IMG/VR virus record: IMGVR_UViG_3300009509_001033
Location: 5,804-69,803 of that record
Reading direction: 5' to 3' (one strand)
Length of the DNA: 64,000 bases
Source: a virus
A program made the position numbers and the translations under genes. This document shows, in pieces, positions 1 to 64,000 of the stretch. Positions within the stretch are counted from its first letter, which is position 1, and each line of letters opens with the position of its first letter. The notes beneath the pieces are model-generated. The model was not told the DNA's origin. It ran no database searches and saw nothing but the letters and a program-made list of their open reading frames with translations.

Positions 1-404
1 TTCAGCAAGCAGGGGCAGTTCCTCTATTTCACTTCAATGATTATACTAATGCACTTCCTATTAGCAAGATGCCAGATATATATCAGGATATGGATGTCTT
101 CATTGTTGCATCAACAGAAGATGGTACTCCGAATCCAGCATTGGAAGCAGCAGCATGTGGAAGACCAATTATCTCTAATGCAATTGGAAATATGCCTGAG
201 TTAATAAAGAATGGATATAATGGCTTTATTGTGGAGAAGAGGATAGGGGCATATGTAGAGAAGATCAACTATCTTAGGAACAACAGACAAAAGCTTATTG
301 AGATGGGCAAGAATGCACGAAAGACCATTGAGGAAGAATGGACCTGGAAAATACAATCAGAGCATTGGAGAAGAATGTTCAGAGAGGTATTGGGATTGAT
401 ATGA
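1..404 (+). CDS. GT4 (GT-B) glycosyltransferase, 5'-truncated by window edge
   Basis: Frame open from position 3; GT4 motif STEDGTPNPALEAAACGRPIISNAIGNMPE..NGYNGF. Confidence 0.85.
   Translation, partial: QQAGAVPLFHFNDYTNALPISKMPDIYQDMDVFIVASTEDGTPNPALEAAACGRPIISNAIGNMPELIKNGYNGFIVEKRIGAYVEKINYLRNNRQKLIEMGKNARKTIEEEWTWKIQSEHWRRMFREVLGLI
144..196 (+). repeat. 53-bp perfect direct repeat, second copy 2957..3009
   Basis: GAAGCAGCAGCATGTGGAAGACCAATTATCTCTAATGCAATTGGAAATATGCC in both GT4 genes. Confidence 0.9.
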
Positions 405-1342
405 AAGTAGCTATATTGGGAAATACCAGATTAAACTATAGTTGGTTCGTATTGACACATAGACAGGGATTGAAGCTGAATGGTCATACCGTAATTGATA
501 TAGACTATAAGACAACTCCACTAATGGAGATCTATAATAGGCTTGTAAGTGAGAATCCTAAATATGTCTTTACACATTTAACATTTCATTCTCATATACA
601 TCCACCTGATGTTATACTTAATGTCTTGAAGCAGGTGAAGAATAAGACAGGAACTAAATTTGTTCATGTATTAATGGATGCTCGACATGAACCAAGGTAT
701 AATAAAGATATCTCAGATGTCTTCCATATGGCATTTGTGAATCAAACAGAAAACCTTGAAAAATTCCAGGATTATTGGAGGATACCAGTTATCTTTGAAC
801 CATATTGCTCATTGGTGCAAGAAGAATTGGCAAACCCTGTAGGTGAATTGGCATTTGGTAATCGGCTTATTTTTCCTGGCAGTCCTATGGCACATCCACC
901 ACGTAGGAATTTTTTACAGAGGGTACAGCAAATAATGCCGTTAGTATATTTGCAAACTCAGTCAGCAAATGATTTAAGGCATAGAACACCGGAACTGTCA
1001 ATATCAGCTAAAGCTATTCTATCAGCATGTATTGGATATGATATAATGCATTATAATGAAGTAAGACCATGGCAATATCTAGGTGCTGGTGCCTGTTTGA
1101 TACATAGGAAGTTTAAAGGTGAGGATGATTTAATACCAAGTGATCTCTATTTGGAATATAACTCACCAAAGGAAGTAAAAGAACAATTTACTAGAGCATG
1201 TAATGAAGATACAATGCCGATGAGAAAGAAGGCATTTGAGTTCATGCAGAAACACCATAACAGTAAAGTTCGAATGTATAATGTAATGGAGTGTCTTGAG
1301 GAAAGACAGTTTACTACTAATTCATTTATATGGGAGTTATAA
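401..1342 (+). CDS. GT-B glycosyltransferase, CgeB-like (start refined to 401)
   Basis: ATGA overlap with upstream stop; MKVAILG N-terminus; C-terminal RPWQYLGAGACLI..KAFEFMQKHH..RM resembles Glyco_trans_1_2/CgeB. Confidence 0.6.
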   Translation: MKVAILGNTRLNYSWFVLTHRQGLKLNGHTVIDIDYKTTPLMEIYNRLVSENPKYVFTHLTFHSHIHPPDVILNVLKQVKNKTGTKFVHVLMDARHEPRYNKDISDVFHMAFVNQTENLEKFQDYWRIPVIFEPYCSLVQEELANPVGELAFGNRLIFPGSPMAHPPRRNFLQRVQQIMPLVYLQTQSANDLRHRTPELSISAKAILSACIGYDIMHYNEVRPWQYLGAGACLIHRKFKGEDDLIPSDLYLEYNSPKEVKEQFTRACNEDTMPMRKKAFEFMQKHHNSKVRMYNVMECLEERQFTTNSFIWEL

Positions 1343-1560
1343 TGGCAAAGAAAATAATAGTATGTGAGGGCAAGAAAGTAAAACTAAAGCATCTAAAGAA
1401 AGGTCTCATTTTCAGTCTTCTTGAAAACCAGGAGTTCATAGGTAATTTTGAAGTAGCAGAGGAAATGGATGCTACAGGAACAGTAAAGGCAAGAATTGTC
1501 ACTCCTAGTATAGGTGAGAAGTGGATAGAGACTAAGTTTACAGAGGATGATTTGCAATGA
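1342..1560 (+). CDS. hypothetical protein
   Basis: Tightly packed ORF, GGAG upstream. Confidence 0.6.
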   Translation: MAKKIIVCEGKKVKLKHLKKGLIFSLLENQEFIGNFEVAEEMDATGTVKARIVTPSIGEKWIETKFTEDDLQ

Positions 1561-2180
1561 AAAATTATGTGAAGAACCAAATCGAAATTACAAATAAGAA
1601 TATGAAGGACAAGTATTTCTATCTTCATAAACAAAGACATGATGAATATGCAAACTGGCTTAAACCTCATGTTAAAAAGGATATGAAGGTTCTGGATATA
1701 GGTTGTAGAGATGGTAGCTTTCTTGAATCTCTAAGAAACATAACTGGAGTATGGCAATTGTGGGGAATAGAGCTTAATGAGACTGCAAGCATGATTGCAG
1801 GTGATAAGGGGATAATGGTATATAATGTTGATGCTCATAATATATCATGTGAGAACTTACCGTCATGTGGTATGGAATTTTATGATCTTGTGTGTATGAC
1901 TCATTTTCTTGAACATACTCATTCTCCTATGTTGGTCCTGAAGGAAGCTTTAAGAGTATTAAAGACAGGTGGGATGCTTTTGATTGAAGTGCCACTTGAA
2001 CCAATGCCAGATAAGCTACCCACACAGTGGGGTCACTATTTCACTTTTCAATCACATAGTGATCTGATTAAGTTACTTAATATGGTTCGTAGGGAAGAGG
2101 GATATAATTTTGAGACTGTCAAAGAGCTAAAAGACAAGAAGAAAAATAAATGGTATAGGATGCTGATAAGGAAGAAATGA
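1557..2180 (+). CDS. class I SAM-dependent methyltransferase
   Basis: VLDIGCRDG motif I, GIELN, FLEH..P..VLKEALRVLKTGG. Confidence 0.9.
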   Translation: MKNYVKNQIEITNKNMKDKYFYLHKQRHDEYANWLKPHVKKDMKVLDIGCRDGSFLESLRNITGVWQLWGIELNETASMIAGDKGIMVYNVDAHNISCENLPSCGMEFYDLVCMTHFLEHTHSPMLVLKEALRVLKTGGMLLIEVPLEPMPDKLPTQWGHYFTFQSHSDLIKLLNMVRREEGYNFETVKELKDKKKNKWYRMLIRKK

Positions 2181-14453: not shown

Positions 14454-14462
14454 GGTTCTTTC

Positions 14463-16110: not shown

Positions 16111-16123
16111 ATCCTACTCCTTT

Positions 16124-17139: not shown

Positions 17140-17211
17140 GGTATTCTCCCTTTCTGACATCATCAATATTCTGCCAGTTAGTCTTCCACCACCTACCATA
17201 TATAACTCCTA

Positions 17212-46737: not shown

Positions 46738-46766
46738 ATTTTACCATAGCTTGGGGGTTTTGTTAA
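46738..46766 (-). promoter_or_regulatory. sigma70-type promoter for gp55
   Basis: TTAACA-17bp-TAAAAT with extended TG, intergenic. Confidence 0.6.
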
Positions 46767-47662: not shown

Positions 47663-47674
47663 GATATCTCTCCC

Positions 47675-50074: not shown

Positions 50075-50076
50075 AA

Positions 50077-51771: not shown

Positions 51772-51772
51772 T

Positions 51773-52162
51773 TTATCCTCCTGGGCTTAATATAAAGTCA
51801 ACGGTTACTTCTTGTCTTGTTGTTTGAATCCTAAAAGTTAATTTTACTTCATATTGATTATTATCATAATTTGCATGAACATGGATTCTTTGTACAATAA
51901 CTCTGTCCTCCCATGTCTCAATTGCTCTTAAAAAGTCATTACCAATTCTAAAAGCTGTATCTTCATCCATGGGTTCAAAGAGATATCCCCAAATATCAGT
52001 TGCAAATTCTGGTAGCATTCTTCTTGTTCTTGGTTGAGTATTAAAAATATTTGTAAGAGAATTTATAACAGCATCATATTCGATATCCCTAGTGAAATCA
52101 CCATCTGTTTGTGGCTCTAGTTTGATATCAATGTCTGAATAAAAAGCTTTTCCTACTGCCAT
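51773..52162 (-). CDS. gp25: baseplate wedge subunit / sheath initiator
   Basis: YSDID, AVINSL.NI..T..R.MLPEF, LFEP.D, WEDRV. Confidence 0.9.
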   Translation of the reverse strand: MAVGKAFYSDIDIKLEPQTDGDFTRDIEYDAVINSLTNIFNTQPRTRRMLPEFATDIWGYLFEPMDEDTAFRIGNDFLRAIETWEDRVIVQRIHVHANYDNNQYEVKLTFRIQTTRQEVTVDFILSPGG

Positions 52163-52173
52163 TTAACCCTCCA

Positions 52174-52926
52174 TTATGTTGGTGTAGCAAAGTCTGTATA
52201 GGTATCTTCCATACCTTGTGTCTTCAATAAGTTTTTATAAATAATACTTCTTCCCTGTGTTAATGCTGCTTTAAGATCTATAATTCCATATGTTCCACCA
52301 GTGCCTAATGGTGCATGTATATGATCAAGTGTAAAATCATAATCATCTATCTTGCCTTGAATAACAGTATCACCATCCCATCCTACACCTAGGTACTCGT
52401 AAACTAGCTTCCAGACTCCATTTACAGTTGCTAAAACAATAGCTGTATCTACTTCAATATAGGTGCTATTAGCTGGATAAAACGGAGCACCTGTTACCAT
52501 TACTGTGAGTGTGGTTGCAGGAGCACTATATACACCACCATTAGTAACAATTATTTTTCTACCAACAGGGATTTGACCTGTTAAATTTACACTCTGCACT
52601 ACAAATTCGGTTGTACTAACTTGTGTGAATACAGCAGTGTTGTTTACCAAGTCATATACACCAAAATCAGTAACATTGCCACTTGCATCATAGCTTCCAT
52701 AATTACCAAATGTATAAACATAAGGATTGGTTGCTTTTGCTGGAAGAAGAGTGTTCTTCATTTGATCTATGGCAATTATACTTAGAACACCATCTTCTAA
52801 TGCAGACTTTTGTTCTCCAAGATCATCAATTTGGAGTGTGATAGATTGATAAGATTTATTAAGACTATCAATCTTATCTGGATATCCATCAACCATTTCA
52901 CGAATTTTGTCACTAGCTACACTCAT
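52174..52926 (-). CDS. hypothetical baseplate-region protein
   Basis: Own late promoter and AAGGAG RBS. Confidence 0.6.
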   Translation of the reverse strand: MSVASDKIREMVDGYPDKIDSLNKSYQSITLQIDDLGEQKSALEDGVLSIIAIDQMKNTLLPAKATNPYVYTFGNYGSYDASGNVTDFGVYDLVNNTAVFTQVSTTEFVVQSVNLTGQIPVGRKIIVTNGGVYSAPATTLTVMVTGAPFYPANSTYIEVDTAIVLATVNGVWKLVYEYLGVGWDGDTVIQGKIDDYDFTLDHIHAPLGTGGTYGIIDLKAALTQGRSIIYKNLLKTQGMEDTYTDFATPT

Positions 52927-52938
52927 TCTATCTCCTTA

Positions 52939-52946
52939 TATTTATA
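52939..52946 (-). promoter_or_regulatory. T4-type late promoter TATAAATA
   Basis: Exact consensus, intergenic; gp55 present in window. Confidence 0.7.
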
Positions 52947-52951
52947 TTATT

Positions 52952-53257
52952 TTATCCTGCTGTTACTGTTCCTGCTGCTGTAACTACTGTACCTTTGAAA
53001 CAACCTGAAAATTGGGAACCCAACTGTGCCACAGGAGCACCTTCTGCAAAGACTGTTCCTGCTCCTGTGATAATTAAACCCCAATGACCATCCCCTCTAA
53101 CTACAAAGGAAATACCTACTTGTCCTACAGGTGAACCCTCTGCTTTAACTGTTCCTGCTCCATTGACTATAACTCCAGAGACATTGTGTTTAGTGCTATC
53201 ATGACAAGTATCATCACCAACACCAATATCTCCTATCCTTGCTACCGGAACACCCAT
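52952..53257 (-). CDS. PAAR-repeat spike tip (gp5.4-like)
   Basis: PVARIGD, PVGQVG, PVAQLG; directly after gp5. Confidence 0.85.
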   Translation of the reverse strand: MGVPVARIGDIGVGDDTCHDSTKHNVSGVIVNGAGTVKAEGSPVGQVGISFVVRGDGHWGLIITGAGTVFAEGAPVAQLGSQFSGCFKGTVVTAAGTVTAG

Positions 53258-54390
53258 TAGTTCAAATTAATTGCTGAAGCACTTACATTTACAACACCAC
53301 TGGCAGTGATATCAGCATTTCCTCCTATAGTTACTCTTGCATTACCACCTATTGATATATTTGCATCGGCACCGATAGTTATCTCTAGTTTTCCTCCAAT
53401 GTCTTTTACTTCATCACCTGTTACTTGTATATTTTTGTCTGCACCAACTGACTGATTATATTCATTGCCAATATCTACATTTAAGTCTTTGGCAATGGTT
53501 TTATTCTCATGTCTATCAATCTTAGTTATCTTGTCTTTCTTTATATATGTAGTTTGGTTTAAATCAATTGTTTTATCTTCATTGGCTAAAATATAGATCT
53601 TTTTATTTCGTGTTACTATTTCAAAACTGTCTCTTTGGTTTCTAATTACAATATCTCCTTCTTCACTCACTTCAACAAATGTGTGGGAAGGATGATATAC
53701 ATGAACTCTTCTTTTACCTTGTTCTGGTTCTTGTTCACTTGCTGGAGGAATTACAGTATTATCTATTTCGATTACAATTCCACCATGTGTTGCCAGAACA
53801 ATATTTTCAGGATACCTAGCATCATAGTATGGAAGAGGTTCGTTCCATTGATTACCGTCTGCTGTTTGAATTTCAGTAATTCTTCTATCTTTCTTTTCAT
53901 TAACAATTGTCTGTTGAATTATTCCTCTTGCCAATTTATGAACGTCAGGTTCATTAAGTGCATTGGGCTTAAGTGGAGGTTCTGCTGCTGCAATTGGATA
54001 GACACCATCAGGATCTTGAAATCCAAGATCTGGATCTGTGCCTGGACCCTCTATTGGTATTCCTGGTACAGTGGCAAAATATCTTGGTTGCATTATATGA
54101 CCATTTTCAAAGAACACAAAAACATGAGACCCCTGTAAAGGCACAGACCACATACCAAAACCAGACATAGATCCCTCTATAAGACCCATTGCTGGTTCTG
54201 CCCATGGAAGCTCTTCTGTTGGTATTCCTTCACGAAGATCTTTAGTTCTGAGATTACTGTGAAGACCCCAAACTCTTACTCTTACTCTTCCTGCCTGTTC
54301 TGGATCATTTCTGTCTTCCACAATACCACGATATATGCCATACATACGTTCTGAAGGTGGAATAAAATCTTCTGGCTTGTTTTTTATCAT
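53257..54390 (-). CDS. gp5: central spike, OB-fold plus beta-helix, no lysozyme domain
   Basis: GIVEDRNDP..GRVRVRV.G.H, LPWAEP, HPSHTF.E, VG/IG repeats. Confidence 0.92.
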   Translation of the reverse strand: MIKNKPEDFIPPSERMYGIYRGIVEDRNDPEQAGRVRVRVWGLHSNLRTKDLREGIPTEELPWAEPAMGLIEGSMSGFGMWSVPLQGSHVFVFFENGHIMQPRYFATVPGIPIEGPGTDPDLGFQDPDGVYPIAAAEPPLKPNALNEPDVHKLARGIIQQTIVNEKKDRRITEIQTADGNQWNEPLPYYDARYPENIVLATHGGIVIEIDNTVIPPASEQEPEQGKRRVHVYHPSHTFVEVSEEGDIVIRNQRDSFEIVTRNKKIYILANEDKTIDLNQTTYIKKDKITKIDRHENKTIAKDLNVDIGNEYNQSVGADKNIQVTGDEVKDIGGKLEITIGADANISIGGNARVTIGGNADITASGVVNVSASAINLN

Positions 54391-55667
54391 GTTAAACTTC
54401 CTATAATGGTACTAACAGTAGATCCATAGAGATTCTTCCTAGTTGCCCTGACCAAATCTCTGTTCCTTGAGTCAGTATATCCGTTTTTCAAAAGTACTAA
54501 CTTCTGAATCCATGGTGGTTTTGTAGTTGAACTCCACTGGTTAGTTACAGATTTGACTAGATATAGACCTTTCATTTGTTTATTGAATAACTGATCTTGT
54601 CTTTCTGTACTTGGCCACTCAATTTCTACCATATCTCCAGCATATCTAGTTTCATATCCCTGAACAATTATTTTTACAGCTTGTTGTAGTGAATATCTTT
54701 TCTGCCAATCACTAACAAACATAGCATCTAAAATATTTGGATCTGGTTCACCCTCTAAAACATAATCTGCCCTTGGTATTCCTATATCTGAATATAGGGA
54801 TCTATTACCCAATACAGTTGTCTTTTTTACTAGGTCTGAGTACTCATACTGTTGAGTCACAAAAGCCTTTTTGGAAAAATCATATCCATATTTATGACCA
54901 CCTCTTAGAAAAGACATTTGATAATTATCAACACCCTGTAAAGTCATACTTAAAATTTTATTCAAATAGTAAGATTCTCCTGGCCTATCGAATGCATATG
55001 GAACTGATGTCTTTTTTCCAGATTGTGGAGAACCCTGTAATAAACTATCAAGAGTTACAAAATTAGTTCCTTTAATATTATTGTAGAAGAGATATCCTGG
55101 TTGTTTGGTTATTTTTGCCCTTCCCCTTCTACATAACCAAGTAAGTGCTTGCTTTGGATACCAATAGGGCATAACAAAATCAAGTTTTTCACCTGATTCC
55201 TCAAATTTAGCAAAAGACTTCACACCAAGCATATTATTTGCAATGTGCTTTACAATATTAGAAATACTTTCTTGTTGCCATGATCTGCTGAACTTTTGTT
55301 GTGTTAATAGCTGATACATATCATCAACAAAAGTAACTTCTATAACAGCTTGCCCTTGGCTTTGACTTGGGTTTTGACTGGCAATCTCTTTTACTTCATA
55401 AACATCAAAAGTTAAATCAATGTCTTTATCAACACCATATGTTATAGTTATTTTTTCATTGTCACCTGTTAGTGGTGCAAATTCATAGAAACCATACATA
55501 TCTCTGAATCGAAGTACACCAACTATACAATGAGAAAAAATGTCTTCAATGAAATAGAAAAGTTCCAGATCTTTCATATCTATCTGGAAACCCCTATCAA
55601 AGCAATTATAAGCAATACTCAGATTTTGATATGTTTCGACTATATTTCCAGAATCAACAATACCCAT
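54387..55667 (-). CDS. gp27: baseplate hub protein (gp27-like)
   Basis: Between gp53 and gp5; FIEDIF, GYLFY, AGDMVEI, GLYLVKSV. Confidence 0.7.
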   Translation of the reverse strand: MGIVDSGNIVETYQNLSIAYNCFDRGFQIDMKDLELFYFIEDIFSHCIVGVLRFRDMYGFYEFAPLTGDNEKITITYGVDKDIDLTFDVYEVKEIASQNPSQSQGQAVIEVTFVDDMYQLLTQQKFSRSWQQESISNIVKHIANNMLGVKSFAKFEESGEKLDFVMPYWYPKQALTWLCRRGRAKITKQPGYLFYNNIKGTNFVTLDSLLQGSPQSGKKTSVPYAFDRPGESYYLNKILSMTLQGVDNYQMSFLRGGHKYGYDFSKKAFVTQQYEYSDLVKKTTVLGNRSLYSDIGIPRADYVLEGEPDPNILDAMFVSDWQKRYSLQQAVKIIVQGYETRYAGDMVEIEWPSTERQDQLFNKQMKGLYLVKSVTNQWSSTTKPPWIQKLVLLKNGYTDSRNRDLVRATRKNLYGSTVSTIIGSLT

Positions 55668-56063
55668 TTATCCCTCTCTTCCAAGTTCAGATATAATTTC
55701 TATTTCTTTTATAACTTGGTAAATATAATTGTCTCTTAGTATGTTAGTTTCCTTTCCAGGGTACACTTCTTCAAAGGGGTTTTGAACATTATTCATGACA
55801 CACAAAATCCACCAAAGGCCAGGAGTTTCATAAGCAGCATAGGATATGTTATCCCACCAATCATCATCATTCATATTGTATGCCTGGAAAAATAAAGTCT
55901 CTTCTGCAATTAATGGATTTAATGAATATGATCTCCAAATGTTTTGAAATTTAACACCTTCTTCATCTTGTAGAATATTAAATAGTTTAAGTTGGGATGC
56001 ATTACTTAAATCCTTTCCAGTTAAATCGGTGAAATTTTCTGTCAATCTAACTGTATTAGCCAT
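55668..56063 (-). CDS. gp53: baseplate wedge protein (LysM-like)
   Basis: DNISY..Y..P.LWWIL..MNN..NPF. Confidence 0.85.
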   Translation of the reverse strand: MANTVRLTENFTDLTGKDLSNASQLKLFNILQDEEGVKFQNIWRSYSLNPLIAEETLFFQAYNMNDDDWWDNISYAAYETPGLWWILCVMNNVQNPFEEVYPGKETNILRDNYIYQVIKEIEIISELGREG

Positions 56064-56066
56064 TAA

Positions 56067-57158
56067 TTAACCTCCTGTTCCTGCTGTTTTTGTTGCAGCA
56101 CTAATCTTATCAACATATTTTCTAGTTGATATACCAGCAACAGATAGATCTTGTTGCTCACCAAAAGTAGCCCTTACTCCTGGAGTTATTGATACTGTAA
56201 CAGAACCTTGACCACCTTCTCTATCATAGTTTTTTCTATAGAGAGGATCTATTTCTGTGAAAGTTAAATTCAATTCACAGTAAGCAGGATGTCCATCTCT
56301 ATATGGTTGTCTATAGATAGGTTGAATAGCTGTAAGTGCTGCATTATCTATTTTTATAAATTTACTATCCGGTACTGTTTGTACTGTAAAAACAAAAGGA
56401 GGATCGTAAGCAATTTGAGTTCCTTCCTTATAAGATGCAGCAGCATATTTCTGCAATAACTTAACCGGATAAACAACATCCTTATATGCATTGCCCTCAT
56501 CAATTAATTGGAAAGCAAAGGTATACATTCTTCTAGTAGAATCTTGAAAAACCAATGGAGTATCAAGCTTTACTCTGGGTACAGGTGATTGAACAATGCT
56601 TGATATAATATTATTCAAACTTTGTTTCATTTCACTAGTATCTGTAAGCTTTTCTGTTTGTAGTCGAAGAAGGTATTTTCCCCATTTTTCCAGTTCTCTT
56701 CCAATAGGTCTTCCAACTGCAAGAGTTTCGTCTATGAGTTTTGTAAGATCAACACCCTTTTGTAAAAGTCTTGTTGCAATACTTTCATATGCTTCCCATT
56801 GATGTACAATGTTTTCTTGTATTTCAACAGGTGCCAGAAATTTAAAAGAAGGGAAAGATCCCTTAGAATTGGTAAGGTCATTATATTCCTGTGCCTGTGC
56901 TATATTGAGGTCTTGTACGTTGTCACTTGTTTTAATTGCATTCTTACCTCTAGCACCTCTGGTTTGTGATACTAAACGTCTGGGTTTAATTTCTATCCAA
57001 ACAGCATCTTTCATACCAGCATGGGGTATTCTTGTACCTTTAGGACGTTGAATTATTTTTTCATCAGGAAGAAGAATACCTGCTAAAGCAGCAAGATTCT
57101 TTCCTGTGCCAACTACCTGTTCGGCTAAATTTAAAGCTTTATCAAAATCGAAACCCAT
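56067..57158 (-). CDS. gp48: tail tube initiator / cap (gp48-like)
   Basis: RRMYTFAFQL, PP.F, DGHP..ELNLTFTEI. Confidence 0.65.
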   Translation of the reverse strand: MGFDFDKALNLAEQVVGTGKNLAALAGILLPDEKIIQRPKGTRIPHAGMKDAVWIEIKPRRLVSQTRGARGKNAIKTSDNVQDLNIAQAQEYNDLTNSKGSFPSFKFLAPVEIQENIVHQWEAYESIATRLLQKGVDLTKLIDETLAVGRPIGRELEKWGKYLLRLQTEKLTDTSEMKQSLNNIISSIVQSPVPRVKLDTPLVFQDSTRRMYTFAFQLIDEGNAYKDVVYPVKLLQKYAAASYKEGTQIAYDPPFVFTVQTVPDSKFIKIDNAALTAIQPIYRQPYRDGHPAYCELNLTFTEIDPLYRKNYDREGGQGSVTVSITPGVRATFGEQQDLSVAGISTRKYVDKISAATKTAGTGG

Positions 57159-57172
57159 CTAAGTGACCTCCA

Positions 57173-58894
57173 TTATTGTTTGTTATATAGCAATACCCCA
57201 GGATTGGCTAATTCTTCTTTTGGTTCTGTTGCTATCCTTGCAGCAGCAGCAGGTGCAGTTATAGGGTTCATCATCATTGCAGCATTTGCAACTGATTGGC
57301 CTACTCTCTCTGGGGATACTGGCTTACCTTCCATAACATCTGCCAAGAGATTAATAGTATCTGTAAGTTTACCAATATTTTTATTAATCAAATTTCCTAC
57401 ATCTAGATTTTCTTTTAACCATTTACCAATACCTGATTGTTCCCACTTTTCTTTTCTTGCTGCTAATTCTTCTGGAGATAATTTTGATTCTCTAGGAGCA
57501 TATACTTCTCCAGGAAAGGCTTGTTGTATCTGTATTTCCCTTTGTGCTGGTGTCAATTTTTCAAATTCTTCCTGTGCTTTCCTTCTTGCTTCTTCACCGA
57601 AATGCCTTTCCCACCAATCAGTTAATTTATCTCTCCAGTCTTTCATCATTTCAATAAAAGCTTTTCTAGCTCTTTCTGTTGCTTCATTAAGTTCACTAAA
57701 AGTTTTCTCTGTCTCTGGATCTTCTATGTAATTTTTAATAGGAGTAATAAACCATTCATTAAATTTATCACCTATCCAGTGAATGCTTTTAGCTATTGTC
57801 TCTATGGAAAAATACTGAGAAAGGTTTGTTTCAATACCAAGAACTTTCTTCATTACCCAATCGAAAGCTTTTGCTGGTAATTGAAAAATACCAGAAGCTA
57901 TACCTGCAATTGCAGATTCAATAGCTTCTCGTAAACCTGCATGTTTTCCGAATATTTTTTTATACTTTGAAAGACCCCTCAAGGCATCAAAAAATAGGAA
58001 TAATGGAAATAGGATCTTACCACCAACAAATTTTCCTAGTCTAAACATTTTTCCAATCCAAGGATTTTTGGCCAGATACTCAAAGACTCTTCCTAGGATG
58101 GGAATTTTCTTTATCCATCCTAACCATCGTGGCATACCTTTTGTTGCCTTTTCTAATGGCTTTGCCACTTTAGGAATAAAACCTAATGCTCTCCCTAGTG
58201 CTGCTACTCCCCTTAATGGTAAGAGCAACACTTTTGTAAACATAGCAACAAAACCTGCAATTACTCCAGCAAGAATTGCAAAGGGACCAAAAACAACTGC
58301 CATTATAAGATCAAAGACCCTTCCCCAAAAGGTTCTGTCTTTTTTCTTTGTTTCTCTCATTTCCTCTAGTCGTTTTTTCTTTGCTTCTTCTAGTCTTTCT
58401 TTCTCAGTTTTTGTAGATATACCTAACTGCTCTGCCAATAACTTAAATCCAGACTTTGTTTCTTCAACAATTTCCTGGTCAATATCATACATTTTTGCCC
58501 ATGCATCCATTTGTTGTTCAAACATATCCCATGATGCTTCTTGTCCTTGTATAAACAATTCGTTTGATCTTTGTGACTCTTCTATAATCTCTGCTCCTTG
58601 TTGTAGTGAGGTTCCTCTATACATTCTCTCTTCAACTTTTTCATCCATTCCAAAGAACTCACCAAGATCATCCATAGCACCTTTTACAAAGCCCCATGTA
58701 TTTGCAAAAGTATTTTTAATAACATCTACACCTTCTTGTACTGGACCTAGAACTTCACGTACATGACCACCAATGGTGGTTGCAACCATTTCAGCCTGTT
58801 GTTTCAATGCTTGTGTAGCTCTAAGTTCTGCAAAGCCTTTAACTACGTTCTTAAAGAACATTTCAAGTCTTTGGTCTTCACCACTTTCTGGCAT
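57173..58894 (-). CDS. putative tape measure protein (gp29-like)
   Basis: Long helical protein with hydrophobic G/A-rich segments between gp51 and gp48. Confidence 0.65.
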   Translation of the reverse strand: MPESGEDQRLEMFFKNVVKGFAELRATQALKQQAEMVATTIGGHVREVLGPVQEGVDVIKNTFANTWGFVKGAMDDLGEFFGMDEKVEERMYRGTSLQQGAEIIEESQRSNELFIQGQEASWDMFEQQMDAWAKMYDIDQEIVEETKSGFKLLAEQLGISTKTEKERLEEAKKKRLEEMRETKKKDRTFWGRVFDLIMAVVFGPFAILAGVIAGFVAMFTKVLLLPLRGVAALGRALGFIPKVAKPLEKATKGMPRWLGWIKKIPILGRVFEYLAKNPWIGKMFRLGKFVGGKILFPLFLFFDALRGLSKYKKIFGKHAGLREAIESAIAGIASGIFQLPAKAFDWVMKKVLGIETNLSQYFSIETIAKSIHWIGDKFNEWFITPIKNYIEDPETEKTFSELNEATERARKAFIEMMKDWRDKLTDWWERHFGEEARRKAQEEFEKLTPAQREIQIQQAFPGEVYAPRESKLSPEELAARKEKWEQSGIGKWLKENLDVGNLINKNIGKLTDTINLLADVMEGKPVSPERVGQSVANAAMMMNPITAPAAAARIATEPKEELANPGVLLYNKQ

Positions 58895-58909
58895 TTAATT
58901 CCTCCTAAT

Positions 58910-58946
58910 AAAAAAAAAGGAATCTCAAACCCTTGAGACTCCTTTT
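58910..58946 (-). terminator. intrinsic terminator
   Basis: AAAAGGAGTCTCAA-gggt-TTGAGATTCCTTTT stem followed by T-run. Confidence 0.8.
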
Positions 58947-58965
58947 GAATCCTTTAGATAATTAT

Positions 58966-59163
58966 CTAAGTGTGGCTTGCAGCAATATTTTCTATGCTTT
59001 GTTTTTCTTGTCGTAAATCTTTTATAAGCATATTCACATATGCTTCAAATTCAAAAATGGGCAAACAAGCACTCTCTTCAAGTGATATATTAGCTTTTCT
59101 GGCCAACTGGAATTGTTCATATGTCACAACTTCCAAGCTATCCCCTGCTAACAAGATTCTCAT
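58966..59163 (-). CDS. gp51: baseplate hub assembly protein (gp51-like)
   Basis: EQFQL..IS.EE..LP.FE.E.Y..ML; follows gp26. Confidence 0.75.
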   Translation of the reverse strand: MRILLAGDSLEVVTYEQFQLARKANISLEESACLPIFEFEAYVNMLIKDLRQEKQSIENIAASHT

Positions 59164-59912
59164 TAGAAAAAAAAATTCTCTGGGGGGATGTCAATAACCT
59201 TTTTATATTTGCACTTTTTGGTTTTGCATTTGATTTCAGTTTTGAAATCAATACCAAAGTTTCTAGAAGAGAAGTCAGCTATTTTTTCATACATCTGAGT
59301 TGAGATGTTTTCTACAAAAAGAATCTTTTCCTCCAATGGAATATCTGAATCCTCTCCATCAGGTGTTATTATAGATTTAATTGTTAAAGCCGATACAATT
59401 GTTCCAAGTTCTGCTGTTCTTTGCATATCACTGATATCAGGTGCTTCTTTTAGAATTTCATATGCTAACTTTTGATCACTTCTTCTTGGAAAGTCTAACT
59501 TGACAGATATGTTATCATCCATCTTCACAATATTATCAAGTTTTTGGGGTAGTTTTTCTACTTTTAATGTTTTTAAATCTACCTTCTGTATTGATTGTGA
59601 ACGACACTCAGGACATTGATGTTCAAATTCATATACTGTCCCTCTAGTGTTCTTCCTTAGCTCTATCATGAAAAAGAATCTATCGTTAATATACATGCTA
59701 GTTATATCAAAATCTTTGGGTTCTATGATACTTTCGGCTAGAAGATCATCCAAGATTTCTTCAACTTTAGCCATGTCAGTTTCTTTTTCATAGGCTAGTA
59801 AAGATTTCATCTGTCCAGTTGTAATCGGCTTAAATTTAATTTTTTGCCCACTTCCTGGAAGTACAGTTTCAAACTCATACTTGTTTAAATACTTCTTATA
59901 ATTTGAAGACAT
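59163..59912 (-). CDS. gp26: baseplate hub assembly chaperone
   Basis: LPGSGQKIKFKP, D..F..ELR..G, CPEC, C-terminal C..C..ENFFF. Confidence 0.88.
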   Translation of the reverse strand: MSSNYKKYLNKYEFETVLPGSGQKIKFKPITTGQMKSLLAYEKETDMAKVEEILDDLLAESIIEPKDFDITSMYINDRFFFMIELRKNTRGTVYEFEHQCPECRSQSIQKVDLKTLKVEKLPQKLDNIVKMDDNISVKLDFPRRSDQKLAYEILKEAPDISDMQRTAELGTIVSALTIKSIITPDGEDSDIPLEEKILFVENISTQMYEKIADFSSRNFGIDFKTEIKCKTKKCKYKKVIDIPPENFFF

Positions 59913-59927
59913 TTTACCACCTCACAA

Positions 59928-60212
59928 TTATTTACTTGTTATTTCGTTTATAGCTTCATTTAAATCATGTATTGCAGCTTTTAAAGCTAGTTCTGCATCA
60001 TTTCTAGAACCACCTTCTAGAAATTTACCTGCTGAATCAATTTTGGATCTGGCATCAGATAACTTCATGATGCCAGTTCCAAATTTTAGTTTGTTTTGTT
60101 CTCGTATCTTCTGTAGCTGAACCTGCATAGGGTCAACTTTCTTATCCAATTTGCCTTCATTCAACATCTTCTCGTATTTATCTGTAATACGTTCACTCCA
60201 CCCCTTGAGCAT
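59928..60212 (-). CDS. hypothetical protein
   Basis: AGGAGG RBS. Confidence 0.6.
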   Translation of the reverse strand: MLKGWSERITDKYEKMLNEGKLDKKVDPMQVQLQKIREQNKLKFGTGIMKLSDARSKIDSAGKFLEGGSRNDAELALKAAIHDLNEAINEITSK

Positions 60213-60228
60213 AATAACCTCCTAAGTA

Positions 60229-60780
60229 TTAGCCAGCAAAGGAAAGAACCCTTGCATAGTCAACCAATCTATCTACTATATGGTATTGGTAGTTGAACAT
60301 AACATTAAATTGTGCTACGTCATTTGTTGCATAGTCCAGAGTAACAGCTTCAACTGTACTTGGCCAAGCACCTACCAACTTATATTTTAAGATAGGGTCA
60401 CCATTAAGATCAAGAAGCTCAACTACCTGATCAACCATGTAGTCTGATGGTGCAGAAGCTTGGTTTGATGTTGGATCATGAATCAGCCTTTGCCAATCTA
60501 TATACCACTTCAAAACATCTGCATTCTGATCAACATTAAACAACATGCCCCATTCAGCATATGTGAGCTTACCTGCCATCTTGAAGTCAAATCCTTGCCA
60601 GTTAGTTGTAATTGGCTCAATTGTTCCTGCTGGTAAAGATGATGATCTCACAAGATATGTAGCTTGATCAGTGTTGGCATTAACTATTTGCACTGGAAAC
60701 AAAGGTTTGCATTGAAACAAATATGCTCTTGCTCCAGCTTTGAAGTTTGCTCTGTAACTATCAATATCAAAACCTGCCAT
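60229..60780 (-). CDS. gp19: tail tube protein
   Basis: GARAYLF, SSLPA, K.AG..TY.EW, L.GAWP..V..LDY. Confidence 0.92.
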   Translation of the reverse strand: MAGFDIDSYRANFKAGARAYLFQCKPLFPVQIVNANTDQATYLVRSSSLPAGTIEPITTNWQGFDFKMAGKLTYAEWGMLFNVDQNADVLKWYIDWQRLIHDPTSNQASAPSDYMVDQVVELLDLNGDPILKYKLVGAWPSTVEAVTLDYATNDVAQFNVMFNYQYHIVDRLVDYARVLSFAG

Positions 60781-60796
60781 TATATTTTCCTCCTAA

Positions 60797-62578
60797 TTAA
60801 GCTCTTCCTGCTCTCAAGGCAGCAATTTCAGTAAAACTAGCACCTGTCTTTGTTGCTATAAAGTTAAGTACTATGAACTCTGCTGCTCTTGTAGGCTTAA
60901 CGTAAATATCACACCAAAGTTCATTTCTATCAATTCTCTCAGGTGTGTTGTTTGTCTCATCACAGACAATTAGGTAATCAAAAATTCCTCTTCTAGATCT
61001 TACATCTCTCAAGAACGGATCAATCAAGTTAAGTAAGAGAAGTCTAGTAATATCATCATTTGGCTCAAAGAGGAAATTAACAACTGCTGTTGAGATTGCC
61101 TTTTCAAGAATAATGAAAAGTCTTCTTACGTTAATTCTATTGAAAGCAGAATTTCTATCTAACATTGTCTTTTGACCAAAGACAACTTTACCTTGACCAG
61201 CAAAACTAACAATAGGATTAATACCATTCTTGTAAAGAATGTCTCTTTCACCAAGAGTTGGATTCCATGCAAGTCTTCTAACATTACTTAGAATACCTCT
61301 TTGGAAACCTGCTGGTGCAAACCATGGATCTGTTACATCATCGGTACGTGCAAATATACCTGCAACATGACCTGATGTTGGTATCCATCTATATTTGTTG
61401 TTCCACTTGTCGTAAATTTCTAACCAGTTTCCATAAACAGCAGCATAACTAGTATTTAGATTTAAGTTATCGGTGATATAAGGTGTAGAACCTGTTCTCC
61501 AAGCTCTTAATTCCTCTACTTCATTTCCACTGTTATTTACAACTGTTTCGTATGGACAATCTAGAACTGCCATACAGTCAAGTCTGCTCTCACAGATGCT
61601 TGACATATATGATTTAACTGTTTCTGACTTGTCAGAATCAATGAAAATATTAACATCTACATCTTCTGCATTAGCATAAAGATCTAGATCTCTTATAATA
61701 TCTCCATCTTCAACCTGATCACCTTGATTATCTACACCACCACCAAACTGTTGCCAACTTGCAGTTGCAACAAATATATTAGTATTCTTTTGTGCTTCAT
61801 TGAAAGCAATTCTAATATATTTGGATTGGTTGTTAATAACATTCTCTGCAAAAGTTGTAACACCTTCATCATCTACTCTGTCTTCTTGTGTTGAAACATT
61901 CCATTCTTCCTTTCTGGTATATGCTGTTTCACCTTGCTCTTTTGATTCAACAATAATCAAGAAATCTTTTTGATCTGATAGTGGACTATCTGTTGATTGC
62001 ACTGCTTGCCATGTTCCTGTATCTGGATCTGACCAAGTAGGATCAGTTCTAAATCCACCAGTAGTAATAGCTGTATAGGTAGATCTGTCTACTACTGCCA
62101 CTCTTACGTTTGCTCCCCATGCCCCTCTAGAACTGGCTATTAGGTAAAATGGGTTGCCTGGATCAACAGTAACCTCTTCTGCAAATTGATCAGGGTCTTC
62201 ACTTACAAAATCACTTAAGATATATGCATTGGCTTGTGTAAAAGGGACAAAAGTTGAGGGACTGGCTCCAGTACCACTAACTGCTTTTGTACCAGCAAAA
62301 GTTGCTGACATCGGCATTGTTCTGGTAGCATAAAGTTTTGTTCCCCATCTAAAGAAACCTGTAGCTGTAAGCATATCTCTATAAGCATTTACATTGCTTG
62401 GTGGTTGACCAAAGGTTTCGATTAAATCATCTTCCGATGTCACCAACCACTTTTTTCTCTCTGGACCTTTATAAGTATTCCTTAGAATTATACAACCAAT
62501 AGAGGTTGCTACTGCTGGAATAGTAGTTGTAAGGTCAATTTCATTAACGTCAACTAATGGACTAAGATAAAAAGCCAT
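60797..62578 (-). CDS. gp18: tail sheath protein
   Basis: YLSP.V.V.EIDLT, PWFAPAG, LY..GINP, SAFNRINVRRLF, FEPND, KPTRAAEFI.LNF. Confidence 0.97.
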   Translation of the reverse strand: MAFYLSPLVDVNEIDLTTTIPAVATSIGCIILRNTYKGPERKKWLVTSEDDLIETFGQPPSNVNAYRDMLTATGFFRWGTKLYATRTMPMSATFAGTKAVSGTGASPSTFVPFTQANAYILSDFVSEDPDQFAEEVTVDPGNPFYLIASSRGAWGANVRVAVVDRSTYTAITTGGFRTDPTWSDPDTGTWQAVQSTDSPLSDQKDFLIIVESKEQGETAYTRKEEWNVSTQEDRVDDEGVTTFAENVINNQSKYIRIAFNEAQKNTNIFVATASWQQFGGGVDNQGDQVEDGDIIRDLDLYANAEDVDVNIFIDSDKSETVKSYMSSICESRLDCMAVLDCPYETVVNNSGNEVEELRAWRTGSTPYITDNLNLNTSYAAVYGNWLEIYDKWNNKYRWIPTSGHVAGIFARTDDVTDPWFAPAGFQRGILSNVRRLAWNPTLGERDILYKNGINPIVSFAGQGKVVFGQKTMLDRNSAFNRINVRRLFIILEKAISTAVVNFLFEPNDDITRLLLLNLIDPFLRDVRSRRGIFDYLIVCDETNNTPERIDRNELWCDIYVKPTRAAEFIVLNFIATKTGASFTEIAALRAGRA

Positions 62579-62625
62579 TCCTCTTTCCTCCTACAAAATA
62601 GTAAATAAATAACCCAATTCAATAG

Positions 62626-62633
62626 TATTTATA
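62626..62633 (-). promoter_or_regulatory. T4-type late promoter TATAAATA for the sheath/tube operon
   Basis: Exact consensus about 50 bp upstream of gp18. Confidence 0.8.
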
Positions 62634-62721
62634 AAAAACGGATTAAAAATTCTAAATATATTTAGAGTTGTTTAATAAATGATATGCAGACGTAAGACAG
62701 AAATACGACAAAAGGAGAAAG

Positions 62722-62979
62722 TTGAAAATTATGTTTAAAAGAAAGGCTAAAAAAGGTGAGACATATTGCTTCAGGTTAACACAAGATGAAAGGGAAATGA
62801 TTAAATTTCTTCAGAAAAATATTGATGTTCCCTTTGAACTGAGAAAAAGGGTAAGGGAGATGTACAACTATGAAATGAAAAATAAAGTTGAACCACCTGC
62901 CCCAAAACCAGCAAAAAAATTTGATCCAGATGCAAGCTATTTTAGAGAAAGACATGGAATGCATGAAAGTGACGGTTAA
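62722..62979 (+). CDS. small basic protein, possibly ribbon-helix-helix-like
   Basis: AAGGAG RBS, TTG start; TYCFRLTQDEREMI pattern. Confidence 0.5.
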   Translation: MKIMFKRKAKKGETYCFRLTQDEREMIKFLQKNIDVPFELRKRVREMYNYEMKNKVEPPAPKPAKKFDPDASYFRERHGMHESDG

Positions 62980-63524
62980 TCATCACATCGTGCATCACGT
63001 AGCTCATATCTGTCATATGTAAACTGTGCTGTGGATTCAAGGTTAGCTTGACCCTCTCTGGTGTTAAATCTAACTTCTCCAACTGCACTTACCCAGAGGT
63101 TTACAAAAAATAATCTAAATAGCTCTTTTTGAAAGTTATCTAATACTCTTAAAGTTGCATCTATACAATAATCTTGTGGTGGTCTACCACGTCTATTTTT
63201 ATTGTTGTTGATATACATCATCCATCTATGCAGGATTCTCCAGTTTAGAAGACCTTCATCAACAATATATTCACAGGTAAAAGGTTCCCATGTGATACCA
63301 CCACTATCCATGTGAGTCTTTCCCATTACCCAATATAGCTCCAATACATCAAGTGATACTCCAGGAATAACAGTTCCATAAATGTTTATTATCAATTCTT
63401 GTGTATCTGCTATTGAAACGTCTGGTGGTAGATTAGGAATCACCAAGCTAAAATTAGCTGGAGATGCTTTATCTAATATAATTCCACCAGAAACATCATC
63501 TTGGCATTGTAAAGTATCTGTCAT
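62976..63524 (-). CDS. gp3: tail tube terminator (gp3-like)
   Basis: NFSL.IP, IPGVSL, VDEGL.NW..HRW, DATL.VLDN, F.NLW, FTYD.Y. Confidence 0.8.
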   Translation of the reverse strand: MTDTLQCQDDVSGGIILDKASPANFSLVIPNLPPDVSIADTQELIINIYGTVIPGVSLDVLELYWVMGKTHMDSGGITWEPFTCEYIVDEGLLNWRILHRWMMYINNNKNRRGRPPQDYCIDATLRVLDNFQKELFRLFFVNLWVSAVGEVRFNTREGQANLESTAQFTYDRYELRDARCDD

Positions 63525-64000
63525 TAGTGTTCCTCAAAAAGTTCATATTTGAAAAGTTTCACTACTTCACCATCAACCGGATATGCTGTTATGCCCTTTG
63601 TCCAGGATGTATAGAGACCTCCTGATGGTGCAGCAGATGTAAATAGTGCTGAAGTATCTCGTTCATTAAAATATCCACATTTAGTGTAGTATTGTATTAT
63701 AATTTCCTTCACTATTTTTGCAGCAGGATCATCTAGGAGAGGTTGAAATAGATAACCTTGAACTGTGAAATCCAGATTCCATTTCAAAATTCGTCTTTCC
63801 TCATCTGCATATTCTAATGTTTGATCAGATGATGCACTATTAAACTGTACTCGTTCATCTAAAGTAACACTTAGTTCTGGAATTGCAACCCTTATTTGAA
63901 CAAAAGGTGTGAAGAAAGGAAGAATCTGCTCTAGGATCTGATCAACATCAACTATATGAAGGCTCCATATTGTAAGCTGAAAATTAAAATTATATGGAAT
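63524..64000 (-). CDS. gp15: tail sheath terminator, 5'-truncated by window edge
   Basis: Frame open to window end: IPYNFNFQL.I..DQILEQILPFFTP..RRILKWNLDFTVQGYLF. Confidence 0.9.
   Translation of the reverse strand: MPYNFNFQLTIWSLHIVDVDQILEQILPFFTPFVQIRVAIPELSVTLDERVQFNSASSDQTLEYADEERRILKWNLDFTVQGYLFQPLLDDPAAKIVKEIIIQYYTKCGYFNERDTSALFTSAAPSGGLYTSWTKGITAYPVDGEVVKLFKYELFEEH

What the first reader, a model, noticed from the sequence alone, without database searches (positions are those of the whole stretch)
1..64000. Apparent total absence of the trinucleotide GCG/CGC
Seen: I checked the flanks of every CG I could find (a few hundred; CG itself is scarce). All are preceded by A/C/T and followed by A/G/T. 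I found no GCG or CGC, while ACG, TCG, CCG, GCC, GGC, GCA, CCGG, GGCC and GATC all occur. The gap holds in all frames, on both strands and in both accessory and structural genes, so codon bias alone does not explain it. Known: phages deplete 4-6 bp restriction sites, but GCGC, CGCG and CCGC avoidance together would still allow words such as ACGCA or TGCGA. Inference: a DNA-level selector with an effective 3-bp target, such as a host nuclease, toxin or deaminase, a methyl-dependent system triggered where GpC and CpG overlap, or a phage nuclease that destroys GCG-containing host DNA and spares its own genome.
Basis: partly seen in the sequence, partly recalled or inferred. Interest (0 to 1): 0.9.

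Follow-up and report, generated by a model that had tools for sequence, protein, structure and literature searches.

The report
Phage clade with no GCG
A sediment phage related to T4, and its close relatives, have removed every copy of the three-letter DNA word GCG (CGC on the other strand) by silent changes, which suggests that something in their hosts attacks DNA at a target shorter than that of any restriction enzyme I could find described.

Summary
The window, the whole 69,803-base record and about 10 kb more from a near-identical contig contain 0 GCG and 0 CGC. A dinucleotide model expects about 150-165, and reshuffling synonymous codons gives 245 +/- 14. All nine other NCGN contexts occur 28-93 times. 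Both words are absent from the sense strand of genes on both strands, so the constraint acts on DNA. It is met by context-dependent silent codon choice. Known 4-bp sites cannot explain it: WGCGW alone is expected 76-119 times and is found 0 times. Relatives with a 90-100% identical sheath protein also have none, despite up to 0.35 changes per four-fold site. The sister lineage (78% identity) has GCG near expectation. Other branches of the family show weaker, independent GCG losses, and the family carries many lineage-specific purges of restriction-type words. My best reading (about 0.5) is purifying selection by a host DNA-cutting defence that reads only GCG. I found no natural enzyme with that target. 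The host is unknown and only about a third of the genome is available. An earlier agent of this scan reported a similar TCG purge in crAss-like phages; I did not test that.

The parts
1..64000 (.). DNA with no GCG and no CGC on either strand (447 CG dinucleotides, all in other contexts). The property continues through the rest of the record (5,803 bases to the left of the window) and about 9.9 kb beyond its right end in contig L086.
338..12930 (+). Block of + strand genes (sugar, methyl and sulfo-transferases, APS kinase, GMP reductase). The sense strand lacks both GCG and CGC. For all 31 + strand ORFs of the record the shuffle expectation is 30.5 and 39.2.
13158..64000 (-). Block of - strand genes (recombination genes, RCC1-repeat fibre proteins, baseplate, tape measure, tube, sheath). 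The sense strand lacks both GCG and CGC. For all 53 - strand ORFs the shuffle expectation is 77.3 and 98.2.
60797..62578 (-). Tail sheath gene, used as the marker to collect relatives and to build the family tree.

Best explanation
The phage lineage is under continuing purifying selection from a host-encoded, restriction-like DNA-cutting defence whose effective recognition is only the trinucleotide GCG on double-stranded DNA (read on either strand, hence CGC too). The phage appears to have no protecting DNA modification at these sites. It survives by word avoidance, as it does for at least 15 longer restriction-type words. Any mutation that creates GCG is removed, and the ban is met wholly by silent, context-dependent codon choice. 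Shown: the absence, its DNA-level and strand-symmetric nature, its maintenance through divergence, its recent origin in this lineage, and weaker parallel losses elsewhere in the family. Inferred: that the agent is a host nuclease.
For: (1) There are 0 GCG/CGC in 69.8 kb against 245 +/- 14 under codon shuffle. 0 of 1,331 Ala codons follow a C-ending codon, 0 of 144 CGN Arg codons follow a G-ending codon, 0 of 306 NGC codons precede a G, and 0 of 92 NCG codons precede a C. (2) Both words are absent from the sense strand of genes on both strands, so the target is DNA, not one RNA word. (3) The ban is maintained. Five of 80 IMG/VR loci and L088 and L089 of 79 metagenome loci (sheath 90-100% identical) have 0 against 15-53 expected, although four-fold sites differ by 0.06, 0.24 and 0.35. 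The 66 CG dinucleotides that differ between members are all in non-GCG contexts, where about 30 GCG-type ones are expected. (4) It is recent and lineage-specific. The sister lineage L005/L006/L090 (78-79%) has 31/41, 37/51 and 13/15 observed/expected. 19 of 29 of its aligned GCG sites are replaced silently here, including AGG CGA to AGA AGA. (5) The family pattern looks like restriction avoidance. Different lineages have purged GATC, CTAG, CATG, ACGT, GTAC, TTAA, CGCG or GAGGC. This lineage also has 0/72 GAGGC, 0/38 GATGAC, 0/32 GRGCYC, 0/30 ACTGGG, 0/27 CAGCTC, 0/15 CTGCAG, 0/14 GGATCC and 1/31 GAATTC. The sister lineage shares GAGGC, ACTGGG and CAGCTC but keeps GATGAC and GAATTC and has purged GATC instead. 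(6) Graded, independent GCG losses occur elsewhere in the tree: L084 1/14.6, L162 0/7, L149 2/10, L145 5/17, L048 5/15. This fits a dose-dependent external pressure. (7) No DNA methyltransferase family was found in the record.
Against: I found no natural restriction enzyme or methyltransferase with a GCG target. A 2009 paper states that no natural C5-methyltransferase recognises GCG (PMC2790894, Discussion passage). That the shortest orthodox Type II sites are 4 bp is my recollection. The host is unknown, so no cognate system can be shown. A host that cuts at every GCG must protect a very large number of its own sites. The survey of Rusinov et al. (PMC6286503, abstract) finds avoidance mainly for orthodox Type II sites and rarely for asymmetric types, whereas GCG is asymmetric. 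Only about 33% of the genome is available by CheckV's estimate, so a phage methyltransferase or nuclease may lie in the unseen part.
Confidence: 0.5

Rival explanations
1. Union of several ordinary restriction sites. The host population carries enzymes for GCGC, CGCG, CCGC/GCGG and further 4-5 bp words that together happen to cover every GCG context.
For: The phage has clearly purged many different words, at least 15 of 5-6 bp. Its hosts therefore carry many systems, and GCGC, CGCG and CCGC enzymes are common (recalled).
Against: WGCGW is expected 76-119 times and found 0 times. Covering it needs at least four more asymmetric pentamers or two degenerate words, and the union would have to equal NGCGN exactly while sparing ACGT (81 found), TCGA (60) and CCGG (32). 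In the sister lineage 23 of 37 GCG sites lie in WGCGW.
Confidence: 0.1
2. CRISPR PAM purge. The hosts' CRISPR-Cas system uses GCG (or CGC) as its protospacer-adjacent motif. Repeated escape by PAM mutation has ratcheted the motif out of the genome, leaving nothing to acquire or target.
For: A 2-3 nt motif read on either strand is what PAMs are. Partial PAM depletion in phages is published (PMC4246573 and PMC12174588, abstracts). Graded depletion in other lineages fits a weak per-site pressure.
Against: Published PAM depletion is partial, not total. I know of no system with this PAM (recall only; my searches did not ask for a GCG PAM). The other purged words in the same genome are restriction-type 5-6-mers.
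Confidence: 0.1
3. Methylation-dependent restriction or motif-directed base damage. Either GCG becomes methylated in one host and a modification-dependent nuclease in another host cuts it, or a cytosine deaminase or other DNA-modifying toxin acts at GCG on single strands. The word is then both mutated away and selected against.
For: CG as a whole is strongly depleted in this lineage (0.21) and in much of the family (0.09-0.87 in most loci), which suggests CG-centred pressure. Of the 29 aligned GCG sites of L006, 15 correspond here to GTG (9) or GCA (6), the CpG transition products. A five-residue loop deletion turns M.HhaI from GCGC to GCG specificity (PMC2790894, abstract and passages). CGC/GCG-context 5mC exists in a eukaryote (10.1101/2024.01.08.574619, passages).
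Against: Mutation alone cannot hold the count at 0 of about 245 while other CG contexts turn over freely. Two-step silent replacements such as CGA to AGA indicate selection. GTG and CAC are not enriched (0.93 and 0.99). L078/L140 have almost no CG, yet 5 of their 8 CG lie in GCG, so CG loss and GCG loss are separable.
Confidence: 0.12
4. Self-sparing phage nuclease. The phage makes an enzyme that cuts or nicks at GCG to destroy host DNA, as T4 destroys cytosine DNA, and is immune because its own genome lacks the word.
For: The phage is related to T4. It carries a free-standing HNH endonuclease gene at record positions 2463-2999, outside the window (Pfam E 0.0048, below cut-off; PHROGs HNH families down to E 1.9e-8). 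Phage and prophage HNH nickases with 3-7 bp specificity are described (PMC3592412, abstract and Table 1 passage).
Against: A genome with about 150-250 sites cannot acquire such an enzyme step by step. Partial depletion in other lineages would be lethal under this model. The HNH has only generic core similarity (at most 40% over at most 61% of its length) to HNH genes of GC-rich Streptomyces and Mycobacterium phages and no close relative in IMG/VR. The other lineage-specific purges look host-imposed.
Confidence: 0.08
5. Artefact. A modified base at GCG is misread by sequencing, or assembly or filtering removed the word.
For: All data are probably short-read assemblies, so a chemistry-dependent misreading would be shared by all of them (inference).
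Against: The same result is seen in independent assemblies: five IMG/VR contigs from five metagenome ids, two further metagenome contigs, and contigs of runs from 7 studies. ORFs are intact. Replacements are silent and often involve two bases or the neighbouring codon, which a single misread base cannot give. Contigs in two of the same runs that fit this stretch only in part, so perhaps related phages, do contain CGC in their loose ends.
Confidence: 0.02
6. RNA-level selection by a sequence-specific endoribonuclease toxin (MazF-like, 3-nt target).
For: Trinucleotide avoidance driven by MazF (ACA) is reported for RNA phages (PMC12151602; search listing and start of abstract only).
Against: Both GCG and CGC are absent from the sense strand of genes on both strands (expected 30-98 each). 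One RNA word would deplete only one of the two.
Confidence: 0.02

Closest known systems
Restriction-site avoidance in virulent dsDNA phages (survey: Rusinov et al. 2018, PMC6286503; abstract read)
   Same: A short word is eliminated completely and strand-symmetrically by silent changes, differs between related lineages, and is accompanied by purges of classical 4-6 bp sites in the same genome and family.
   Different: The word has only 3 bp and is asymmetric. I found no enzyme with this site. The abstract reports avoidance mainly for orthodox Type II sites.
Very short-site nucleases: phage and prophage HNH nicking enzymes with 3-7 bp sites, e.g. N.BceSVIII S^RT (PMC3592412, Table 1 passage); chlorella-virus Nt.CviPII (CCD) and CviJI (RGCY), sites recalled
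   Same: They show that natural DNA enzymes can act on about 3 bp of information.
   Different: None is reported for GCG. They are virus-encoded, and Nt.CviPII needs a cognate methylase for over-expression (PMC3592412 passage). No avoidance of their sites by a whole phage clade is known to me.
PAM depletion in phages (Kupczok and Bollback 2014, PMC4246573; Ortega-Sanz et al. 2025, PMC12174588; abstracts)
   Same: A 2-3 nt motif read by a DNA-targeting immune system is under-represented in phage genomes.
   Different: Depletion there is statistical and partial. Here it is total over about 80 kb and in every member of the clade.
Engineered GCG-specific M.HhaI variants (Gerasimaite et al. 2009, PMC2790894; abstract and passages)
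   Same: A protein reads exactly GCG on DNA. It arose from a GCGC enzyme by a five-residue loop deletion, so such specificity is within evolutionary reach.
   Different: It is a laboratory methyltransferase, not a natural nuclease. The paper states that no natural C5-MTase has this target.
TCG/CGA purge in marine crAss-like phages
   Same: Another NCG trinucleotide is removed almost completely from a phage clade by silent changes.
   Different: A different word, a different phage group, about 99% rather than 100% removal, and a reported strand bias. Here the loss is total, so no strand bias can be measured.

Membership tests
Restriction-site avoidance | The word is far below expectation under composition-aware and codon-aware nulls | tested here: met
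   0 against 148-165 (Markov) and 245 +/- 14 (codon shuffle)
Restriction-site avoidance | The depletion is strand-symmetric and independent of reading frame and gene orientation | tested here: met
Restriction-site avoidance | The depletion is lineage-specific and maintained by purifying selection | tested here: met
   Clade members have 0, the sister lineage is near expectation, and 66 polymorphic CG all lie outside GCG
Restriction-site avoidance | The word is the recognition site of a known restriction enzyme | tested here: not met
   No natural GCG enzyme was found in the papers searched. PMC2790894 says no natural C5-MTase has this target. REBASE itself was not available.
Restriction-site avoidance | The host carries the cognate restriction-modification system | not testable with these tools
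   The host is unknown. The MAG bins that hold relatives are inconsistent (Arcobacter, Thermoplasmata, Woesearchaeota).
CRISPR PAM depletion | The motif equals the PAM of the host's CRISPR-Cas type, and protospacers in relatives are flanked by it | not testable with these tools
   No host and no spacer collection were at hand.
RNA-level toxin avoidance (MazF type) | The depletion is confined to the transcribed sense strand | tested here: not met
   Sense GCG and sense CGC are both 0 in + and - strand genes
T4-type self/non-self host-DNA destruction | A phage-encoded nuclease that discriminates host DNA from phage DNA | tested here: inconclusive
   One HNH gene of unknown specificity. Only about 33% of the genome was seen.
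T4-like myoviruses (taxonomic placement only) | T4-type tail sheath and gp15-type sheath stabiliser | tested here: met
   The sheath is 31-41% identical to those of T4-like phages of Pelagibacter, Sinorhizobium and Synechococcus. PF16724 T4-gp15_tss, E 5.5e-48.

The most novel reading that the evidence does not exclude
A natural DNA-targeting defence exists whose specificity is just the trinucleotide GCG, shorter than the site of any characterised restriction endonuclease I could find. It is common enough in anoxic-sediment hosts to have driven one total and at least two partial, independent purges within a single phage family. Together with the TCG purge this scan reported in crAss-like phages, it would mark an unrecognised class of NCG-reading enzymes that shape phage genomes.
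Probability: 0.45. Interest if true: 0.85.

Novelty: new variant of a known kind. Interest (0 to 1): 0.8.

Why it matters
Word avoidance in a phage genome is a negative image of the nucleases its hosts use. A complete, maintained purge of a 3-bp word says that some activity in nature reads only three base pairs and is lethal at a single site. No catalogued restriction enzyme I found does this. Identifying it would extend the known range of defence specificity. It could yield a very frequent cutter or nickase as a tool, or a natural GCG methyltransferase of the kind that had to be engineered in 2009. It would also explain why some phages show extreme CG-context biases. The GCG-free clade and its GCG-containing sister lineage (78% sheath identity) give a ready-made comparison for experiments.

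Tried and rejected
Codon bias as the cause is rejected. The shuffle null already uses the phage's own codon usage and still gives 245.

A single RNA-level word is rejected by strand symmetry in sense strands.

GCGC + CGCG + CCGC as the cause is rejected by the WGCGW count.

Host identification failed. ARAGORN found no tRNA genes. The four GTDB contigs that hold relatives are binned to Arcobacter, Thermoplasmata, an unnamed bacterium and Woesearchaeota, which I take as binning noise. The atlas look-up of the GMP reductase gave mostly viral clusters. 57 of 84 ORFs have a Shine-Dalgarno-like word upstream, a weak hint only.

Search for a phage nuclease or methyltransferase: Pfam on 60 proteins and six-frame searches for PF00145, PF01555 and PF02086 gave no DNA methyltransferase. 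The three SAM methyltransferases in the sugar operon match small-molecule-type families only. The only nuclease-like hits were the weak HNH match and a calcineurin-like phosphoesterase (PF00149, E 8.6e-06) in a 396-aa protein encoded on L001 beyond the record's end. I did not scan the structural ORFs or the gp46/gp47-like pair. The HNH had no PDB match below E 0.3.

Extending the genome: IMG/VR gave about 9.9 kb more (L086). A 52-kb metagenome contig holds about 17 kb further sequence that I did not fetch; L088 and L089 are not held for whole-record searches.

Residual GCG sites in the partly depleted relatives show no common flank.

Reads: contigs of four runs were laid on window 41168-60000. 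Only 40 of 520 variant rows were shown, and none of the 40 creates GCG or CGC. This is weak evidence because most rows were hidden.

The megablast of 12.6 kb against GenBank phages found nothing. The UvsX-like protein and the HNH found no close relatives in IMG/VR.

Literature: I found no paper describing total loss of a trinucleotide from a DNA phage. Supplements were closed and not read, so supplementary tables of the avoidance survey could bear on this.


Full report
WHAT IS THERE. The window has 447 CG dinucleotides but no GCG and no CGC. A first-order Markov model expects 68 and 80. No other trinucleotide falls below 0.69 of expectation. The nine contexts [A/C/T]CG[A/G/T] occur 28-93 times each. 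The window is part of a single-contig virus record of 69,803 bases, which also has 0 GCG and 0 CGC among 495 CG. CheckV's estimate for the record is 33% complete, so the genome is probably near 210 kb. The tail sheath is 31-41% identical to those of T4-like phages of Pelagibacter, Methylophilales, Sinorhizobium and Synechococcus, and a T4 gp15-type protein lies next to it. The phage is therefore a distant T4-like myovirus. Near-identical DNA is held by runs of 7 studies, labelled marine sediment, soil or plain metagenome.

IT IS NOT CODON BIAS AND NOT AN RNA EFFECT. I called 84 ORFs, covering 98% of the record. The codons GCG (0 of 1,331 Ala) and CGC (0 of 1,051 Arg) are unused. Even with that codon usage kept, shuffling synonymous codons within genes gives 244.8 +/- 14.0 GCG+CGC at codon junctions (minimum 206 in 200 shuffles) against 0 observed. 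The junction rules are absolute:
- 0 of 1,331 Ala codons follow a C-ending codon, although 2,456 of 22,630 codons end in C.
- 0 of 144 CGN Arg codons follow a G-ending codon, whereas 116 AGR codons do.
- 0 of 306 NGC codons precede a G-starting codon.
- 0 of 92 NCG codons precede a C-starting codon.
Both words are missing from the sense strand of the 31 + strand ORFs (expected 30.5 and 39.2) and of the 53 - strand ORFs (expected 77.3 and 98.2). A selector reading one RNA word would leave its complement in place. The constraint therefore lies on DNA.

IT IS NOT A SET OF KNOWN LONGER SITES. Twelve of the 16 NGCGN contexts have a shuffle expectation of 8-32, and all 16 are empty. The four CGCGN contexts are too rare to judge. 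WGCGW, which GCGC, CGCG and CCGC/GCGG do not touch, is expected 119 times (shuffle) or 76 times (Markov) and is found 0 times. In the sister lineage, 23 of 37 GCG sites are of this kind.

IT IS A TRAIT OF A CLADE, HELD BY SELECTION. With the sheath protein I collected 80 loci from IMG/VR, 4 from GTDB genomes and 79 from metagenome contigs. The first and last sets overlap in part. GCG+CGC is 0 in L001-L004 and L066 (expected 15-43) and in L088 and L089 (expected 53 and 28). These are exactly the loci whose sheath is 90-100% identical to ours. L086 adds about 9.9 kb beyond the end of our record, also with none, giving 79,662 bases in all. Within this clade, four-fold degenerate sites differ by 0.06 (L002), 0.24 (L089) and 0.35 (L066) changes per site. 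If the 328, 424 and 311 observed differences were drawn at random from the possible ones, about 25, 30 and 21 of them would have created a GCG or CGC. A stricter control allows for the general scarcity of CG. 24, 26 and 16 CG dinucleotides are present in one member and absent in the other, all in non-GCG contexts, where about 10.8, 12.0 and 7.4 GCG-type ones are expected. These three comparisons cover overlapping DNA and are not independent. The next relatives, L005, L006 and L090 (sheath 78-79%, four-fold divergence 0.82), have 31/41, 37/51 and 13/15 observed/expected. Their CG ratio of 0.33-0.37 is close to ours once GCG is set aside. Of 29 scorable GCG or CGC sites in these relatives, 19 keep the same amino acids in our phage through silent replacements (GGC GAG to GGT GAA, TTC GCT to TTT GCC, AGG CGA to AGA AGA), and 10 have changed residues. 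So the purge arose after that split and was achieved without cost to the proteins.

THE FAMILY CONTEXT POINTS TO NUCLEASES. Across the family, different lineages have purged different short words:
- GATC in L005/L006 (0/37 and 0/44) and in L063.
- CATG, ACGT and CTAG in L007-L009.
- CTAG in several lineages.
- GTAC in L015, L018, L019 and L047.
- TTAA in L065, and CGCG in L063.
- GAGGC and CACTG in several lineages.
In about 79.7 kb of our lineage these words are absent or nearly so: GAGGC 0/72, GATGAC 0/38, GRGCYC 0/32, ACTGGG 0/30, CAGCTC 0/27, ACAGCC 0/23, CCCAGC 0/18, CAGCTG and CTGCAG 0/15, GGATCC and AGGCCT 0/14, GAATTC 1/31 and GAGGAG 1/30. GATC, GTAC, TCGA, CCGG and ACGT are unaffected. 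I recall some of these as Type II and IIS sites (PstI, BamHI, EcoRI, PvuII, BmrI, AceIII). The names come from memory, not from a call. The sister lineage shares the loss of GAGGC, ACTGGG and CAGCTC but keeps GATGAC and GAATTC. Such changing fingerprints are what restriction-site avoidance looks like (PMC6286503, abstract). GCG is the shortest member of this phage's list.

CONVERGENCE. On a sheath tree of 98 rows (IQ-TREE quick search) the GCG-free clade and its GCG-containing sister form a group with support 100, nested among lineages with normal counts. In the other half of the tree, a group 55-57% identical to ours shows strong but incomplete loss: L084 1/14.6, L162 0/7 (99% identical to L084), L149 2/10 and L145 5/17. 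Its neighbours L073 and L159 stand at 8/14 and 21/35. L048 (5/15) is a third case, next to L034 (20/25). L084 and L162 are not in the tree because their sheath genes are cut; I placed them by nucleotide identity to L149. Over all three sets, the remaining loci have a median observed/expected of 0.94-1.00. The pressure on GCG is thus not unique to one lineage, and it comes in degrees.

MECHANISM. The most economical reading is an external, host-encoded activity that damages DNA wherever GCG occurs. Fitness rises as sites are lost, and in our lineage a single site is not tolerated. I put about 0.5 on a restriction-like nuclease acting on unmodified DNA. Two points speak against too much confidence. 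I found no natural enzyme with this target: the 2009 paper that engineered a GCG-specific variant of M.HhaI says no natural C5-methyltransferase recognises GCG, although it also shows that a five-residue loop deletion suffices to go from GCGC to GCG (PMC2790894). And the host is unknown.

The rivals are as follows.
- A tiling of several longer sites (0.1) needs an exact and unlikely union.
- A CRISPR PAM ratchet (0.1) is attractive because PAMs are 2-3 nt and depletion of PAMs is published, but only as a partial effect.
- Methylation-dependent restriction or motif-directed base damage (0.12) could link the purge to the general CG depletion, but mutation alone cannot hold a zero.
- A self-sparing phage nuclease (0.08) is made conceivable by an HNH gene at record positions 2463-2999 and by known 3-7 bp HNH nickases. 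It fits poorly with partial depletion elsewhere and with any stepwise origin.
- An artefact (0.02) is contradicted by independent assemblies and by two-base silent replacements.
- An RNA-level toxin (0.02) is contradicted.

COMPARISON AND NOVELTY. As a phenomenon this is restriction-site avoidance. It differs in the length of the word (3 bp), its asymmetry, its completeness over about 80 kb, and the lack of any known cognate enzyme. Natural enzymes with about 3 bp of specificity do exist among virus-encoded nickases (PMC3592412; Nt.CviPII and CviJI sites recalled), and a CGC/GCG-context cytosine methylation exists in a eukaryote. Such reading is therefore biochemically plausible. Earlier agent reports of this scan describe a near-total TCG/CGA purge in marine crAss-like phages and a GCG-free operon in another phage. 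I did not test them, but they suggest that purges of NCG trinucleotides recur. I found no paper describing a DNA phage that lacks a trinucleotide altogether. Supplements were closed.

VERDICT. Interest 0.8; a new variant of a known kind.

Noticed in passing
whole window and record; L086: Besides GCG, at least 15 words of 5-6 bp are absent or nearly absent from about 79.7 kb of this lineage. Examples are GAGGC 0/72, GATGAC 0/38, GRGCYC 0/32, ACTGGG 0/30, CAGCTC 0/27, ACAGCC 0/23, GAATTC 1/31 and GAGGAG 1/30. Several are asymmetric, a class for which avoidance is said to be rare.
   Followed up: partly
L005, L006 (whole loci): The sister lineage has no GATC at all (0/37 and 0/44), while our phage has GATC at expectation (256/271). 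It shares our loss of GAGGC, ACTGGG and CAGCTC but keeps GATGAC and GAATTC.
   Followed up: partly
L007-L009, L015, L018, L019, L047, L063, L065 and others: Across the phage family, different lineages have purged different 4-bp palindromes (CATG+ACGT+CTAG, GTAC, TTAA, CTAG, CGCG+GATC+CTAG). This is an unusually rich set of avoidance fingerprints within one family.
   Followed up: no
L078 / L140 (4,018 bases): CG is almost gone (8 CG, observed/expected 0.09), yet 5 of the 8 lie in GCG. This is the opposite bias to our phage and shows that CG loss and GCG loss are separate pressures.
   Followed up: no
L145:9390, L073:6783, L159:8803, L154:2597: The same 11-base stretch containing GCG (AAGAGCGTTTA) survives in four partly GCG-depleted relatives. 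It is perhaps a constrained site.
   Followed up: no
record G000 2463-2999 (outside the window, 2.8-3.3 kb left of its start): A free-standing HNH endonuclease gene (178 aa, CxxC...HH...N...CxxCH) sits inside the sugar-modification operon. It has no close relative in IMG/VR or GenBank phages.
   Followed up: partly
Its role in a phage is unclear.
   Followed up: no
window 1557-7844 (+): An operon with three SAM methyltransferases of small-molecule type, glycosyltransferases, two sulfotransferase-family proteins and an APS kinase. None matches a DNA methyltransferase family.
   Followed up: partly
window 41168-60000: Near-identical DNA (share of sampled words 0.97-0.99) is held by 18 runs of five studies, and partly by two more runs of two further studies, with different habitat labels. 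Two of the four runs I laid also hold contigs that fit the stretch only in part and whose loose ends contain CGC.
   Followed up: partly
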